Of a DNA stretch of 5,867 bases, positions 1,543 to 5,867 are shown piece by piece. Made by a program: the position numbers and the translations under genes. Location of the stretch: the IMG/VR virus record IMGVR_UViG_2744054675_000002; one strand, 5' to 3'. Source of the stretch: a virus. Taxonomy: Duplodnaviria > Heunggongvirae > Uroviricota > Caudoviricetes. The notes under the pieces are model-generated. The model was not told the DNA's origin and made no database searches. It saw nothing but the letters and a program-made list of their open reading frames with translations. Every line of letters starts with the position of its first letter. The stretch's first letter is position 1.

Positions 1543-1614
1543 GTTGGTTTTTCTCCACGGATTTACCGACAACCGAAGCCCTGACTGTTCCAGCAGTTGG
1601 GGCTTCAACTTTTT
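1543..1614 (+). ncRNA. sar: Candidate sar-like small antisense RNA, complementary to the ant RBS/start and the arc-ant intercistronic region
   Basis: Plus strand: extended -10 motif TGcTATACT at 1528..1536, inside the ant 5' coding region, which predicts a start near 1543. A hairpin follows at 1575..1606 (GAAGCCC / GGGCTTC core, extendable with G-U pairs, 6-nt loop), then AACTTTTTG at 1607..1615. The predicted transcript of about 70 nt matches the size and position of the P22 sar RNA. Ends are approximate. Confidence 0.5.
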
Positions 1615-1866: not shown

Positions 1867-2103
1867 ATGTCACGCGAAGAGCCGCAAATAAATATCAGGA
1901 TTTCCAAAGAGTTAAAGGCAAAGGTTAAAGCCAGGGCGCAACATAACAAGCGTTCCATGAATGCTGAAATAATACAGATTATCGAAGATGCTGTTTGTGG
2001 TAGATCGCTTAATAGCAATGAATTTGCTCAGAAAGAGGCTGACAAATTCAGGGATGCGCTGATTGAAACACTGAAAACCATGTATGGTAAGGATGCAAAA
2101 TGA
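1867..2103 (+). CDS. mnt: Mnt-family ribbon-helix-helix repressor, 78 aa
   Basis: ATG at 1867 with GGAGG at 1858..1862. Protein MSREEPQINIRISKELKAKVKARAQHNKRSMNAEIIQIIEDAV... matches the P22 Mnt N-terminal pattern (compare ...FNFRMPMEVREKLKFRAEANGRSMNSELLQIVQDAL). It is divergent from arc-ant, as in P22 immI. Confidence 0.85.
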   Translation: MSREEPQINIRISKELKAKVKARAQHNKRSMNAEIIQIIEDAVCGRSLNSNEFAQKEADKFRDALIETLKTMYGKDAK

Positions 2104-2309
2104 ATAAAAAACAGTTTATTAAGTCAAAAACATCAAGCAAGGAAGAGCTAGAGAAAGAGCTAAACTCCCTGAAATATGCTCTGTGTCTGGTTTACTCAAG
2201 ACTGCCAATGGAAGATAAAAACGCTATTTACAATGAAATGATTAGCAGCCTTGATTTTAACGATAGAGACCTAGCATCCCACCTCAACAGCTTCCGCGTC
2301 CCTGAGTAA
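2100..2309 (+). CDS. Hypothetical small protein (69 aa), translationally coupled to mnt
   Basis: The ATG at 2100 overlaps the mnt stop in an ATGA arrangement, with AAGGA 6 nt upstream. The protein is hydrophilic and probably helical, with no family I recognise. The region looks AT-rich by eye. Confidence 0.5.
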   Translation: MNKKQFIKSKTSSKEELEKELNSLKYALCLVYSRLPMEDKNAIYNEMISSLDFNDRDLASHLNSFRVPE

Positions 2310-2469
2310 TTCTGTTGCGGATTTGCTTCTTGCGGTGGTTTAGGCTGGAGAGCTTGGCTTCTGCTTCCGATATTTGCGCATCCAGATCTTTAAGTTCAAG
2401 ATCTGAAAGTCGCTGGTCAAGCAGGGTTTGATTCAACTCGATGTTGTTCAGGCGTTCTTCTATGGTCAT
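2284..2469 (-). CDS. Hypothetical coiled-coil-like small protein (61 aa)
   Basis: ATG at 2469..2467 with AAGGTAA upstream (revcomp of about 2476..2482). Codon choice looks coding-like (CTG, CGC, AAC, ATC). The protein has heptad-like hydrophobic spacing and a basic C-terminus. It lies in late-operon orientation and overlaps the 3' end of the 69-aa ORF by 26 bp, so it is uncertain. Confidence 0.35.
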   Translation of the reverse strand: MTIEERLNNIELNQTLLDQRLSDLELKDLDAQISEAEAKLSSLNHRKKQIRNRITQGRGSC

Positions 2470-2494
2470 ATTATTACCTTAGTGGGAGATTGGT

Positions 2495-2794
2495 GTGAAG
2501 CGATGGGTTATAGGTGCATTCTGTTTTCTAATTAGTGGTCTTGCACAATCGCAAGATAAGGATCTGAAATTTGCTAACGACATGTTAGTTACAGCTAAAG
2601 TTGCTGGTATGTGTGGAACATTTAAACAAATGTTTGCTTTTCAAGAAGCAACACAGATGCCCGGCGGAGATGAATTTATTGAACGTTTTTTGAATACGGA
2701 AATTTCTCGCCTAGGAATGTCACTTCAAGAGTTCATGAAGTTGTGCACAGATTCTATAGAGTCATACAATAAATTAAAAAGGATGTCAGAATAG
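2495..2794 (+). CDS. Hypothetical secreted/periplasmic small protein (99 aa) with N-terminal signal peptide
   Basis: GTG start at 2495 with GGGAG at 2484..2488 (6-nt spacer). The N-terminus MKRWVIGAFCFLISGLAQSQ has a basic n-region, hydrophobic core and a likely signal peptidase I site after GLA. There is no lipobox. The mature part of about 79 aa has two Cys. The gene is AT-rich. Confidence 0.6.
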   Translation: MKRWVIGAFCFLISGLAQSQDKDLKFANDMLVTAKVAGMCGTFKQMFAFQEATQMPGGDEFIERFLNTEISRLGMSLQEFMKLCTDSIESYNKLKRMSE

Positions 2795-2808
2795 CCATCC
2801 ATGGCTAT
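2791..2808. repeat. 18-bp palindrome ATAGCCAT-CC-ATGGCTAT straddling the stop codon of the 99-aa ORF
   Basis: Eight-bp perfect inverted-repeat arms with a 2-bp centre, read directly from the sequence. Function unknown (protein-binding site or RNA hairpin). Confidence 0.4.
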
Positions 2809-2820
2809 CGGGAGGTTAAT

Positions 2821-2889
2821 ATGGTAACAGTCGGTTGGATTATTGTTGCCCTGCTTGTTGCTCTGTGGGCAAAGAATCGTTACTACTGA
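2821..2889 (+). CDS. Candidate 22-aa hydrophobic micro-protein ([22 protein letters not shown])
   Basis: ATG at 2821 preceded by GGGAGG at 2810..2815 (5-nt spacer), 26 nt after the 99-aa ORF stop. It encodes a single predicted transmembrane helix with a basic/aromatic tail. Caveat: 50 bp overlap the antisense of the Gln-rich 3' end of the gp16-like gene, which biases toward Leu/Val codons. Confidence 0.25.
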   Translation: MVTVGWIIVALLVALWAKNRYY

Positions 2890-5008
2890 GAAAAGCGATA
2901 ATACCAACGCGGGCTAGATTTTTCTTCTCGTCCGCTGATAGCGTATTTACCCAATCCCTATATGGTTTCACTTTCTGCATTGAAGCATCCACCGATTTCC
3001 TAGATGCTGGGGTGCTGGCGTGACCTGCGGCAATCCTTTTTGAGAGATTTTTAAAAGCCGGAGATGCTATTAATTCATCAGCGGCAGCCATTCTTGAATT
3101 TTTACCAGAACGGAGGAGGCTAAAGAGTACCCCTGCCGTACCGGCTCCAGGCGCTCCGATGGCTGTGGTTAGCCCTTCTGCTTTAGCCACGTCTTTTCCT
3201 ATTCCATATATACGCCCAAGCATTCCCTTCTCTCCTGCGAACTGATTCATCATCCGGTCAATTTGAGAGGAGGAATACACCTTCTCGCTGCCCACCCTTT
3301 GCATGCCAGAAGCCACCTCATAGATGTTTCTCAACCTACGCGTAGCCTGATAGCCAATTGCCCGGCTCAATGCCTGCATATTTGATTTGTTTCTTGATAG
3401 CCCTCCATACCACTTAACAAATCCAGGAACACCAAGTGACTGCCCGGGAGATTTAGCGAACGTAGTGAAAGCCCTATTCATTGCGGTGGCAACAGCTGGT
3501 TGCACCATGTCATCAGGAAGATTTGAAACTAGGCGACGGAAATCACCGCCCTTTCCTTGAGACATATCGACGATAGCTTGCTGTAATTGCGGCACTATTC
3601 CTTTATCCAAGTCTCTGCCAAGATTTTGAACAGCGGCTGCCTGCACTGCGAATCTCTTTCTCCCGATCTCTCTAGCTAAATTCCATGTATCCTCTGCACC
3701 ATATTTGGCAGCAGCGGCTCCCTGATCTTTTATCAGTGCGCTTTCAATAATTCCAAGGTGCCGAGCGTCGATGCCGCTATATGGCCCTTTATCCATCTCT
3801 TTGCCAAGAGCCCTTCCAACCTGCCGTCGAACTGCATCAAGAAGACCATAAGTCGGGGCGGTGTTTGGGTCTATTTGTTCCAAGGTCTTTGACAGTTGAG
3901 GATATAGCGATTTTAGTTTTTCCAGCCCACCGACATCATCTGCAATATCCTCAATGGCGTTAGTGGTATGGGTGGTATCTACGGTAGCTCTTGTTGGAAT
4001 TTTTGCTCTAATTTGATTGTATAGAGTGTCTTCTTGGCGCTTCAGGTTTGATCTTAACTCCTCATAAGAGCTTTTGACCTTTTGATTGATAAAGTCCTTA
4101 TCAACGCTCCCACCAAAATCATTAATAAATTTATCTGCCTGCTCTCCAAGCCTACTAATGGCCTCTCGCTGTGCGTGGAACAGTTTATTCCCTGGGGTTG
4201 CAGCTAAAGCATTTTCAAACGCGCGGTAAGAAGGGTTGCTGGAGTACATGCCGGGAGTTAAGGCATCCTCCATCCCAAGATTGCGGGCGGCCTGTAGCAC
4301 AGAATCATCTGGTGAAACAGCTTCCGCGAGAGCATTTAAACCAGATCTGTTTCCTGTTATTGGATTCACATCTGTAGCTTTCGTTGCAACCCTCGCCATT
4401 CCACTAAGTTCAGATGCCTGAGACATTTCTGCCGATGGAGGCCTAAACCTCTTCGTAACCGCACTGGCTGCTTTGCTAATCACTGGAGATGCCAATTCAG
4501 CAATTGGACCAGCGGCAGCACCTATAGCCGCCCCTGTAGTTACATTGCCACCGGTTCCGTTAGCAACAACACCACCTTCAACCGCACCAAGCCCTGCGGC
4601 GGCAGCCAGCCTTGCCGCCCCTTTCGGAACCTGAGAAATAATCCCACCACCACTAACAAATGGCGCTGCTTGTCCAACAAACTCACCAACATCTTGTGCG
4701 GTTGATGGTTTTGCCGCTAACTTCTGCTGTAGAGACTGAATTGCGGCTTGCTCTTCTGGTGTCATATCCTGAAACAGGCCAACACCTTTACCAACATCCA
4801 TCAATCCACTGAGAACGCCATACATAAAACGGTCGAAACCGTTAGCATTATTAACAACATTTTCCTGTCTGGAATTTTCCTCTGGTGAAACCAAAGGAGA
4901 TTGCTGCTGTTCTGGTTGGGAATCAAGCACAAAGCCATCAGGAAGTTGTGAGTTATCAGGCTGTTCATCCAGAACAAACCCCTCTGGTAAACCTACATTG
5001 GTTGCCAT
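2840..5008 (-). CDS. Ejection (DNA-transfer/injection) protein, P22 gp16-like, 722 aa
   Basis: Long minus-strand ORF with ATG at 5008 and AGGA about 7 nt upstream. It is the last late-operon gene before the immI region, which is the position of gene 16 in P22-like genomes. It has a Gly/Ala-rich segment and a hydrophobic stretch near the N-terminus. The family assignment comes from synteny and composition, not from a verified alignment. Confidence 0.7.
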
Positions 5009-5867
5009 TGTCCGTTCCTGTAAATAATTTTCTGACCAGTTTTAGGATTTTTCGCGGTCATACCTTCTCGAAATGTTTGACCGCCAGATGTTGCTTGTTG
5101 TGTCTGTTGTTGCGCAGGCTGCTGAATATCTTCATACAGCTTGGCTTTTCTGGATTGCAATTGCTTAGTTAGTCCGCTGGGGAGAGAATCTCCATAAGTT
5201 GAAAGATAATCATCCATTTGCTGATTAAACTTTTCGCCTTCAGTATTTGCCATCAGTTTTGAGGTGTTGATTAAGTCTTGGACTTGCTCATTATTCAGCA
5301 TCTTGCCGTTAGATAATTGGCTAACATAGTTACCAAGTGTGCCGAATATTCCATCAGTGCGTTTTACCTGCACTTGCTCACCTTCGCGTACCACAGATTG
5401 CGGATCCAGCGATTTCATATAGTTGAAAATCATTCCCAACTGTGCGGCTGGAGTGTTGCGCTTACCAAGGGCTTGTAGGTTGTCAGCAGCACTGCGCATT
5501 GCAGAATAATTCTTTGAGAACCCATTAATATCACTATTCAGATTTCGAACAAGTTTTGGGTCAATCTTTCCGCTTTCCTGTTGTTTCATCCCTAATTCCT
5601 GCAACTTCAGGGCTACGTTATCATTATGCATTTGTGCCCGCTGAGCCCTGTCTAGTTGAGCGTTTTGGATATTTGCCCATCCTCTCGCGTTCTCCATGTC
5701 AGCCTGACGGATGCTTTCATCCAATCGCCCTTTCTCAAGTTGGCGACCAACCATCTTATCCTGATAATCCAGCATTTTATCCGGACCAACAGCCCCTAGC
5801 GTCATAGTAGTCAGCATGTGTGATAGCTGCTCTGGATTCTGGATACCTGTCTGAATCATCCAGTCAG
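4993..5867 (-). CDS. Ejection protein, P22 gp20-like; 3' portion, N-terminus lies beyond the right window edge
   Basis: The minus-strand frame is open from the window edge (codons upstream of the ATG at 5859 remain open) to the TAG at 4995..4993. It overlaps the start of the gp16-like gene by 16 bp, which is typical late-operon packing. The product call is by synteny only. Confidence 0.6.

What the first reader, a model, noticed from the sequence alone, without database searches (positions are those of the whole stretch)
2495..2794. Small Sec-exported protein with two cysteines encoded next to the ejection-protein genes
The 99-aa ORF has a canonical signal peptide and no lipobox, so it is probably periplasmic. 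Its roughly 79-aa mature part carries two Cys that could form a disulfide. P22-type ejection proteins act in the periplasm and envelope during DNA delivery, so a periplasmic protein made by the prophage could block superinfecting phage at that step or modify an envelope receptor. I could not match it to Cor, Bor, Llp or SieA families from memory.
Basis: inference. Interest (0 to 1): 0.6.

Follow-up and report, generated by a model that had tools for sequence, protein, structure and literature searches.

The report
Exported small prophage protein, function unknown
The ORF is a real gene for a small protein exported to the periplasm, carried as cargo in the variable region of a P22-like prophage where the exclusion gene sieA sits in P22; it belongs to a widespread uncharacterised family and is a reasonable but unproven candidate for blocking incoming phages.

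Summary
Bases 2495-2794 (+) encode a 99-aa protein with a GTG start, a GGGAGA ribosome-binding site 5 nt upstream and a signal peptide without a lipobox. Cleavage after Ser19 leaves an 80-aa, three-helix mature protein with two invariant cysteines.

It matches hypothetical protein Kapi1_059 of phage Kapi1 apart from the start codon. That record carries a DeepTMHMM call of signal peptide plus "outside".

The family has about 267 clusters at 50% identity. It has no Pfam, NCBIfam, PADLOC, PDB or fold match.

The gene is an AT-rich, promoterless cassette in the "ant moron" of P22-like prophages. It always lies on the strand of the maintenance repressor (mnt or a CI-like gene), downstream of it, and converges on the gene-16-position ejection gene. 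P22 has sieA at this position.

More distant relatives sit in other temperate phages, in small integrase islands and in a few plain chromosomal sites.

Function is inferred only. My best guess (about 0.35) is a periplasmic binder made in lysogens that excludes superinfecting phage, working like T4 Spackle or P22 SieA without being related to either. A serotype-specific O-antigen role is unlikely, because the same gene accompanies three unrelated tailspikes.

This is a moderately interesting, directly testable candidate.

The parts
2484..2489 (+). Ribosome-binding site GGGAGA, 5 nt before the GTG start (AAGGAGG in Kapi1 and E. coli 1506)
   Evidence: The homology shared by the three genomic arrangements begins here, so the mobile unit is a promoterless cassette.
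2495..2794 (+). Gene for the 99-aa exported protein (identical to WP_022630937.1; matches Kapi1_059 apart from the start codon; phrog_19844)
   Evidence: (E 2.7e-27 to phrog_19844)
2495..2551 (+). Signal peptide, residues 1-19 (MKRWVIGAFCFLISGLAQS), signal peptidase I type, no lipobox
   Evidence: DeepTMHMM note in the Kapi1 record. 144 of 146 full-length relatives have a comparable N-terminus.
2552..2791 (+). Mature 80-aa domain with three predicted helices (mature residues 2-34, 39-53, 58-79). The conserved core K-x2-G-x-C-G ... F-Q-x2-T-x-M-P-G-G-D-E-F-x2-R-F ... E-x2-R-L lies in helix 1, the turn and helix 2.
   Evidence: AlphaFold2 model, mean pLDDT 88.5; conservation
2612..2614 (+). Codon of Cys40 (helix 1), invariant
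2744..2746 (+). Codon of Cys84 (helix 3), invariant. A disulfide with Cys40 is presumed.
   Evidence: The disulfide is inferred; I could not measure the geometry in the model.
1867..2309 (+). Upstream genes on the same strand: Arc-family mnt homologue (1867-2103) and a 69-aa ORF (2100-2309). They are the probable source of transcription into the cassette.
   Evidence: No terminator-like site on the + strand between 1610 and 2794. In relatives mnt abuts or overlaps the homologue.
2791..2808 (.). Small palindromic hairpin (7-bp stem) overlapping the stop codon, in the 45-bp gap to the convergent gene. It may be a weak terminator or RNA end.
   Evidence: z = -2.2 on the + strand. It does not meet the terminator scan's T-run rule.
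2840..5008 (-). Convergent neighbour: 722-aa protein in the gene-16 (ejection protein) position. It is context, not shown to be a partner.
   Evidence: (phrog_6704, no Pfam domain)

Best explanation
A prophage accessory (moron) gene makes a small soluble periplasmic protein in lysogens, which most likely protects the cell at the envelope against incoming phage.

Shown: the gene is real and conserved. It encodes a protein with a cleavable Sec signal peptide and an 80-aa three-helix mature domain with an invariant cysteine pair. It is an AT-rich cassette that carries no promoter of its own. In P22-like prophages it always lies in the variable region between the homologues of genes 16 and 9. There it is on the strand of the lysogeny-maintenance repressor, downstream of it, and convergent with the late operon.

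Inferred: it is transcribed with the repressor gene in the prophage state. It is exported, oxidised to a disulfide and stays soluble in the periplasm. Having no enzymatic features, it acts by binding a target one-to-one. The target would be either a component that superinfecting virions need to cross the periplasm (a virion cell-wall hydrolase or the ejection-protein conduit) or a conserved host envelope protein that they use. That would give superinfection exclusion, as T4 Spackle or P22 SieA do, but with an unrelated protein.

My confidence that it is an exported, prophage-borne accessory protein is about 0.9. The confidence below refers to the exclusion function.
For: - Real and exported.
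- Fold: three helices, pLDDT 88.5.
- Base composition: 37.0% GC against 44.4% for the window and 47.9% for the neighbouring ejection gene.
- Position: the same slot as sieA in P22, which reads mnt -> ORF59 -> sieA, convergent with gene 16. The region is the fast-changing 'ant moron' (PMC2629481). SieA is a proven exclusion protein, and only 22 of 66 P22-like phages carry it (PMC10883804).
- Link to a repressor gene in every phage arrangement checked:
  - start overlapping the mnt stop in E. coli O104:H4 and related prophages
  - 19 bp after mnt in one Morganella prophage
  - 60 bp after a CI-like HTH plus S24 repressor in E. coli 1506
  - directly after Arc-family genes in two non-P22 viral contigs
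  - one to three genes after mnt elsewhere
- Cassette boundary at the ribosome-binding site.
- Neighbours in this slot are often envelope or defence-type cargo: a lipoprotein with an LLAGC lipobox, further secreted small proteins and Panacea-domain genes.
- Kapi1_059 is not among the Kapi1 genes reported as undetected in lysogen RNA-seq (PMC12922286).
- Recombination inside the gene swaps helix 3 while the core is kept: the N-terminal part of P0004 matches the window protein and its C-terminal part is identical to that of P0160. This fits a variable specificity surface, although linkage to the downstream gene also explains it.
Against: - No experiment addresses this protein.
- No similarity to any known exclusion or defence protein:
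  - PADLOC gives only an insignificant 13.7-bit hit
  - hhalign probability is 0.9% against Spackle and 0.07% against SieA
- Some relatives are not on obvious mobile elements, for example between scpA and scpB in a Pseudobdellovibrionaceae MAG and near housekeeping genes in an Oceanospirillales MAG. The ancestral function may therefore have nothing to do with phage.
- In Kapi1 lysogens mnt itself was not detected by RNA-seq. Simple co-transcription from the mnt promoter is therefore unproven, and spontaneous induction could explain the reads that were detected.
- In the window a 61-aa ORF on the opposite strand (2284-2469) lies between mnt and the cassette.
- The simple scan found no promoter-like site on the + strand.
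Confidence: 0.35

Rival explanations
1. It is a periplasmic inhibitor or immunity-type protein against non-phage attack, or a general envelope-stress protectant, that phages have picked up as useful cargo. Candidate threats are type VI amidases or muramidases, lysozymes, bacteriocins and predator enzymes. It would bind and neutralise a conserved class of periplasm-acting enzyme.
For: The family spans Gamma- and Betaproteobacteria and a Bdellovibrio-like lineage. It occurs as a stand-alone gene with no conserved partner, sometimes at ordinary chromosomal sites. Tandem two-domain versions exist (P0015, P0139, P0145), as expected for a binding module. The polar residues K35, Q50, T53, E69 and R72 are invariant.
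Against: No cognate toxin or effector gene lies next to it in any locus examined. No sequence or fold match to Tai/Tsi-type immunity proteins or to Ivy, MliC or Pli lysozyme inhibitors. In phages it is consistently placed behind the prophage repressor, which points to a phage-related benefit.
Confidence: 0.2
2. It is a lysogenic-conversion factor that changes the lipopolysaccharide O-antigen, for instance by binding the periplasmic face of Wzy, Wzz or WaaL. That would make it the unidentified O-antigen-modifying gene of Kapi1.
For: Kapi1 lysogens have an altered O-antigen and no responsible gene was found. The candidates tested were hyp5, hyp19, hyp24 and hyp25, and Kapi1_059 was apparently not tested alone (PMC8787464). 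Constructs carrying the flanks of hyp19 were toxic in non-lysogens. By my count of the annotation hyp19 is the 722-aa Kapi1_058, so one flank includes Kapi1_059 (inference). The periplasm is where O-antigen is polymerised and ligated.
Against: The same gene (99-100% nucleotide identity) occurs with three tailspikes that share only the head-binding domain and have unrelated receptor-binding parts. It is therefore not tied to one O-antigen type. The family extends far beyond enterobacteria. It has no transferase or other enzymatic signature. The near-identical E. coli O20:H12 prophage carries its own (pseudogenised) acyltransferase next to the tailspike.
Confidence: 0.12
3. It serves the phage's own lytic cycle, for example by restraining a virion or lysis cell-wall hydrolase in the periplasm. 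That could control lysis timing or prevent lysis from without by progeny.
For: T4 Spackle has this kind of dual role (PMC7677548). SieA is up-regulated on induction (PMC10883804).
Against: The gene lies opposite to the late operon. Late transcription running through the ant moron to the tailspike gene would be antisense to it. It also occurs on small integrase islets with no lysis or virion genes.
Confidence: 0.08
4. It is a spurious or decaying ORF with no function.
For: UMNK88-type prophages keep only a broken 5' stub of it (MKRLIVYALFC*), so it is dispensable.
Against: 267 family clusters with ten invariant residues. It is intact and 99-100% identical in seven complete E. coli genomes with different flanks. 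The structure prediction is confident.
Confidence: 0.02

Closest known systems
T4 Spackle (gp61.3), periplasmic superinfection-exclusion protein
   Same: Nearly the same gross anatomy. Spackle is a 97-aa precursor with a 22-residue signal peptide and a 75-aa all-helical mature protein with one disulfide (Cys29-Cys81). It is soluble in the periplasm and acts by 1:1 binding (PMC7677548). Here the figures are 99 aa, 19 residues, 80 aa and C40/C84.
   Different: No sequence relationship (hhalign probability 0.9%). Spackle entries are absent from all Foldseek PDB matches with E<=10. Spackle is a flat bundle of five short helices, whereas this protein has three long ones. Spackle is an early gene of a virulent phage, whereas this gene is linked to a prophage repressor. 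No T4-type tail lysozyme is known in P22-like virions.
P22 SieA
   Same: Same slot and orientation in the genome: last gene on the mnt strand, convergent with gene 16. Both are dispensable cargo present in only some P22-like phages.
   Different: SieA is a 162-164-aa inner-membrane protein with three or four membrane-spanning segments, no signal peptide and the motif FxRYPxEAxxFNK. This protein is soluble, half the size and unrelated.
Other prophage-encoded periplasmic exclusion proteins (Vibrio phage K139 Glo, P1 Sim)
   Same: From my own knowledge, not checked here: these are signal-peptide-bearing periplasmic proteins made by prophages that block a step after adsorption.
   Different: They are larger (about 14 and 25 kDa). 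I did not compare their sequences.
Cor, Llp and Bor outer-membrane lipoproteins of lambdoid and T5 phages
   Same: Prophage- or phage-encoded small envelope proteins in moron positions. A lipoprotein gene sits directly after the homologue in O104:H4-type prophages.
   Different: Those proteins need a lipobox cysteine. This protein has none, and only a handful of the relatives examined show a lipobox-like sequence.

Membership tests
phrog_19844 (uncharacterised phage protein family) | Significant match to the family profile over most of its length | tested here: met
   E 2.7e-27, residues 12-98 against profile positions 15-101 of 105. The family has no known function.
'ant moron' cargo of P22-like phages | [quoted passage not shown] | tested here: met
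   Window gene order. sar RNA at 1543-1610, 91.8 bits. Different gene sets at this place in Kapi1, E. coli 1506, UMNK88, O104:H4 and Morganella. Definition taken from PMC2629481.
T4 Spackle family | Cleavable signal peptide plus a helical mature protein of about 75-80 aa with one cysteine pair | tested here: met
T4 Spackle family | Sequence or profile homology to Spackle | tested here: not met
   hhalign probability 0.9%, with only 6 aligned columns inside the signal peptide
T4 Spackle family | Same fold as PDB 6X6O | tested here: not met
T4 Spackle family | Binds and inhibits a virion tail lysozyme | not testable with these tools
   Needs binding and enzyme assays
P22 SieA (types A-C) | Gene between gene 16 and gene 9 homologues of a P22-like prophage, on the mnt strand | tested here: met
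P22 SieA (types A-C) | Integral inner-membrane protein with three or four membrane-spanning segments and the FxRYPxEAxxFNK motif | tested here: not met
   The only hydrophobic segment is the signal peptide, and the motif is absent (sequence). hhalign probability 0.07%.
Cor/Llp/Bor-type phage lipoproteins | Lipobox [LVI][ASTVI][GAS]C at the end of the signal peptide | tested here: not met
   C10 is preceded by G-A-F, and cleavage is predicted after A-Q-S
Known bacterial lysozyme inhibitors and periplasmic chaperones (Ivy, MliC/PliC, LprI/DUF1311, HdeA, Spy/CpxP) | Match to the Pfam model of the family | tested here: not met
   None of the 42 family members scanned matches any of these at E<=1
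Known anti-phage defence systems (PADLOC-DB v2) | Match to a defence protein model | tested here: not met
   Only a 13.7-bit hit over 26 residues to PDC-S48. The homologues P0160 and P0028 have no hit.

The most novel reading that the evidence does not exclude
The protein founds a new, widespread family of soluble periplasmic anti-phage proteins. Prophages and other mobile elements would express it together with their repressor. It would block envelope penetration by binding a conserved component, with helix 3 as a recombining specificity surface. In Kapi1 it could also account for part of the unexplained superinfection immunity, or for the toxicity seen with constructs carrying the hyp19 flanks.
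Probability: 0.25. Interest if true: 0.65.

Novelty: new member of a known kind. Interest (0 to 1): 0.4.

Why it matters
Few soluble periplasmic exclusion proteins are understood; T4 Spackle is the best-studied example. This gene offers a small, tractable candidate in the slot of P22-like prophages where the proven exclusion gene sieA resides. A diverged copy sits directly behind mnt in the P22-like prophage of the E. coli O104:H4 outbreak lineage. An essentially identical copy is in phage Kapi1, a mouse-gut colonisation model whose O-antigen-modifying gene is unknown and whose superinfection immunity is only partly explained. The family has about 267 sequence clusters and no Pfam entry or solved structure, so a function assigned here would annotate many hypothetical proteins. 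If it proves to do nothing against phage, it is simply one more unexplained moron.

Tried and rejected
- Pfam, NCBIfam and PADLOC scans of the protein, of homologues and of all 42 alignment members gave nothing meaningful.
- A PDB sequence-profile search gave a best E of 0.76, which is noise.
- Three fold searches gave only generic helical hits:
  - Foldseek against PDB on the mature model
  - Foldseek against BFVD on the mature model
- The AlphaFold database library was not available.
- I tested homology to T4 Spackle and P22 SieA and rejected both.
- I tested whether the 161-aa and 154-aa genes next to homologues are SieA. They are not. The 161-aa one is a lipoprotein.
- I tested whether the adjacent 104-aa Morganella protein is a paralogue. 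It is not.
A narrower alignment worked.
- A plasmid search found nothing.
- The promoter scan found no + strand promoter. The single - strand hit (2499-2470) is fewer than chance expects.
- Supplementary expression tables of the Kapi1 RNA-seq paper are not held, so I could not get an FPKM value for Kapi1_059.
- A literature search for the protein accessions and the PHROG number found nothing.
- I looked for a link between the family and one type of gene-16 protein. There is none: relatives sit next to both the Pfam P22_gp16 type and the 707-734-aa type without a Pfam domain.

Full report
**1. The observation**

The window holds a 99-aa ORF at 2495-2794 on the + strand.
- It starts with GTG. 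GGGAGA lies 5 nt upstream, and an in-frame TAG at 2480-2482 prevents any longer reading frame.
- The N-terminus MKRWVIGAFCFLISGLAQS|QDKD has the three parts of a signal peptidase I signal peptide. The single cysteine in it (C10, preceded by G-A-F) is not in a lipobox.
- The protein is 98/99 identical to Kapi1_059 of Escherichia phage vB_EcoP_Kapi1. The one difference is the start codon.
- That GenBank record carries the depositors' DeepTMHMM result, "signal residues 1-22, outside 23-103", for a version annotated 3 codons longer. In window numbering this places cleavage after Ser19.
- The mature protein is 80 aa, 9.2 kDa and pI 5.1, with exactly two cysteines, C40 and C84.

**2. It is a real, conserved protein**

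- A word-indexed search found only ten close relatives, in E. coli, Salmonella and uncultured phages.
- A full HMMER profile search of 1.84 billion representatives found 267 clusters with E<=1e-3 and 177 with E<=1e-10. Nearly all are about 100 aa long.
- In a 42-sequence alignment with 33% mean column identity, K35, G38, C40, G41, F49, Q50, T53, E69, R72 and C84 are invariant. G57, G58, F61, R64, F65 and Y91 are nearly so.
- Conservation is concentrated in residues 31-74. In helix 3 only C84 and Y91 are conserved.
- Of 146 full-length members, 144 have a signal-peptide-like N-terminus. Of 155 motif-bearing members, 152 have both cysteines. Only a few look like lipoproteins.
- A few members are tandem duplications of the domain.

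**3. Structure**

AlphaFold2 on the mature sequence with 31 aligned relatives gives mean pLDDT 88.5 and three helices at mature residues 2-34, 39-53 and 58-79. The two cysteines lie on helices 1 and 3. A disulfide is the natural reading for a periplasmic protein, but I could not measure the distance in the model.

None of the three fold searches gave a specific match:
- Foldseek against PDB, best E 1.1
- Foldseek against BFVD, best E 0.87

No Pfam, NCBIfam or PADLOC family matches the protein or its relatives. No PDB sequence matches the profile. The only family membership is phrog_19844, which has no known function.

**4. Genomic setting in the window**

The window is the immunity-I / ejection-gene end of a P22-like (Lederbergvirus) prophage. 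It is 96% identical to Kapi1 over 78% of its length. The features, in order:

| Coordinates | Strand | Feature |
|---|---|---|
| 640-1608 | - | ant |
| 1543-1610 | + | sar RNA (Rfam, 91.8 bits) |
| 1605-1793 | - | arc |
| 1867-2103 | + | mnt homologue |
| 2100-2309 | + | 69-aa ORF |
| 2284-2469 | - | 61-aa coiled-coil ORF |
| 2495-2794 | + | target gene |
| 2840-5008 | - | 722-aa protein in the gene-16 position |
| 4993-5859 | - | C-terminal part of a gp20 homologue |

- P22 itself reads mnt -> ORF59 -> sieA, convergent with gene 16. The target therefore occupies the sieA slot.
- The region between genes 16 and 9 is the known, rapidly changing "ant moron" (PMC2629481).
- SieA is a proven inner-membrane exclusion protein that only 22 of 66 P22-like phages carry (PMC10883804).
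- The target has the lowest GC content in the window: 37.0%, against 44.4% overall.

**5. The gene is a promoterless cassette tied to the repressor strand**

Aligning the window with Kapi1, E. coli 1506 and E. coli O20:H12 shows that shared sequence begins at the ribosome-binding site. What lies upstream differs:
- the 61-aa ORF on the opposite strand in the window and in O20:H12
- a roughly 250-bp insert with another secreted 60-aa protein (Kapi1_060) in Kapi1
- a CI-like HTH plus peptidase S24 repressor gene, 60 bp away, in strain 1506

More distant homologues (about 37-52% identity) show the same pattern:
- In E. coli O104:H4 2011C-3493 and relatives, the homologue's start overlaps the mnt stop and a lipoprotein gene follows.
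- In Morganella prophages it follows mnt by 19 bp, or by two genes.
- In Salmonella-type arrangements it lies two or three genes after mnt.
- In two non-P22 viral contigs an Arc-family gene lies directly upstream.

I found no terminator-like site on the + strand between sar and the target.

From this I infer expression in the prophage state together with the repressor, as with rexAB behind cI in lambda. The evidence on expression is mixed:
- In favour, weakly: Kapi1_059 is not among the genes listed as undetected in lysogen RNA-seq.
- Against a simple mnt operon: the same study did not detect mnt itself.
- Against a simple mnt operon: an ORF on the opposite strand intervenes in the window.

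**6. Turnover at the locus**

- More than 100 E. coli genomes of the UMNK88 type share the mnt / 69-aa / 61-aa block. They keep only a broken stub of the target's first 65 nt (MKRLIVYALFC*), followed by different cargo that includes a Panacea-domain gene.
- The intact gene at 99% identity or more is in 7 of 5,426 complete E. coli genomes. The diverged O104:H4 type is in 18 more.
- Among 50,697 phage records only Kapi1 and Salmonella phage S.Kent 1-2-1 carry a relative. No plasmid does.
- P0004 is a chimera. Its N-terminal part matches the window protein, and from T53 onwards it is identical to P0160. It also carries P0160's downstream lipoprotein gene. Recombination therefore occurs inside the conserved core.

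**7. Outside P22-like phages**

Relatives occur in several other settings:
- on small islands with an integrase and AAA_25 or AlpA-type genes
- on an element with resolvase, ParB and RepB genes
- next to integrases in Methylophaga and Yersinia aleksiciae
- near a lambda-J-type tail-tip gene in a Pseudomonas prophage
- in early-region or other moron positions of diverse viral contigs
- at sites with no obvious mobile element, for example between scpA and scpB in a Pseudobdellovibrionaceae MAG

No partner gene is conserved across these. Whatever the protein binds is therefore probably general rather than specific to P22 ejection proteins.

**8. Function**

Nothing here shows the function.

The placement behind prophage repressors, the sieA slot, the envelope- and defence-type neighbours and the periplasmic location make envelope-level protection of the lysogen against incoming phage the best single hypothesis. 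I put it at about 0.35.

In mechanism it would resemble T4 Spackle, whose anatomy is strikingly similar: a 97-aa precursor, a 22-residue signal peptide, and a 75-aa helical mature protein with one disulfide that binds the tail lysozyme 1:1 (PMC7677548). There is no sequence or fold relationship to Spackle or to SieA. The claim is therefore "works like", not "is a member of".

The rivals:
- A general periplasmic inhibitor or immunity-type protein captured by phages (0.2), supported by the chromosomal members.
- The missing O-antigen-modifying factor of Kapi1 (0.12). That gene was never identified. By my count of the annotation, the toxic hyp19 deletion constructs carried Kapi1_059 in one flank; this is my inference. 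Against it, the same gene accompanies three tailspikes with unrelated receptor-binding domains, and the family is far broader than enterobacteria.
- A role in the phage's own lysis (0.08), which its orientation opposite to the late operon contradicts.
- A spurious ORF (0.02).

**9. Verdict**

The gene is already in the databases as a hypothetical protein, with a deposited signal-peptide prediction. What this analysis adds:
- the size of the family and its conserved motif
- the promoterless cassette structure
- the consistent placement behind repressor genes
- the equivalence to the sieA slot
- the argument against a serotype-specific role

It is a new, uncharacterised family within a known kind of thing, namely prophage morons that encode envelope proteins. 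It is of moderate interest because it can be tested directly in an established model, Kapi1 in E. coli MP1.

Noticed in passing
window 2284-2469 (-): A 61-aa predicted coiled-coil ORF (phrog_7586, E 3e-44; WP_000151196.1) lies on the opposite strand. Its start is only 25 bp from the target's start, and its 3' end overlaps the 69-aa + strand ORF by 26 nt. It is conserved in more than 100 E. coli genomes. P22 has an unrelated 91-aa ORF on the opposite strand at the equivalent place (L023 4024-4299). If it is real, transcripts from mnt would run antisense to it.
   Followed up: partly
window 1543-1610 (+): Rfam finds a full-length sar antisense RNA (RF00262, 91.8 bits). Its terminator hairpin is at 1575-1606. 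The P22-type immunity-I circuit (mnt, arc, sar, ant) therefore looks intact.
   Followed up: yes
window 2840-5008 (-): The 722-aa protein in the gene-16 position has no Pfam P22_gp16 domain (phrog_6704 only). It is 28% identical to the 734-aa protein at the same position in Morganella prophages. It appears to be a second, uncharacterised type of ejection protein. In the Kapi1 paper this is probably 'hyp19', which could not be deleted.
   Followed up: partly
L024 (E. coli UMNK88) 3796-3860 and 3894-5827: UMNK88-type prophages keep a decayed 5' stub of the target gene (MKRLIVYALFC*). In its place they carry a Panacea (SocA-like antitoxin) domain gene and two unknown genes. This shows cargo replacement at the locus.
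   Followed up: partly
L012 8341-8826; L025 3730-4215 (E. coli O104:H4 2011C-3493): A 161-aa lipoprotein (MKKSLLIIPLLLAGC...) is encoded directly after the homologue in the mnt operon of O104:H4-type P22-like prophages. It is not related to SieA and has no family assignment.
   Followed up: partly
L001 (Kapi1) 6267-6449 and L015 (Morganella) 8336-8650: Further small secreted proteins sit next to the family member: Kapi1_060 (60 aa, cysteine-containing) and a 104-aa Morganella protein. Neither is related to the target. The slot seems to collect envelope-directed proteins.
   Followed up: partly
P0004 versus window ORF and P0160; L026 5859-6675: P0004 is a chimera. Its first 53 residues match the window protein, and from T53 onwards it is identical to P0160, together with P0160's downstream lipoprotein gene. 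The conserved core of the gene acts as a recombination crossover point.
   Followed up: partly
L001 6501-6509 versus window 2480-2497: The Kapi1 record starts Kapi1_059 three codons upstream of the GTG used here, and one metagenomic relative (P0001) is called 8 codons longer. In the window an in-frame TAG excludes both, so the conserved start is the GTG after the ribosome-binding site.
   Followed up: yes
L010 3037-3348 (Pseudobdellovibrionaceae MAG): A family member lies between scpA and scpB, with no mobile-element genes within the 4.9-kb contig. This hints that the family also has a non-phage, chromosomal role.
   Followed up: no
L002 1079-2101 (E. coli O20:H12 prophage): The prophage with the near-identical immunity-I region carries an acyltransferase-family pseudogene (internal stop) beyond the tailspike gene. 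This is the usual place for an O-antigen-modifying gene, and Kapi1 lacks one there.
   Followed up: no
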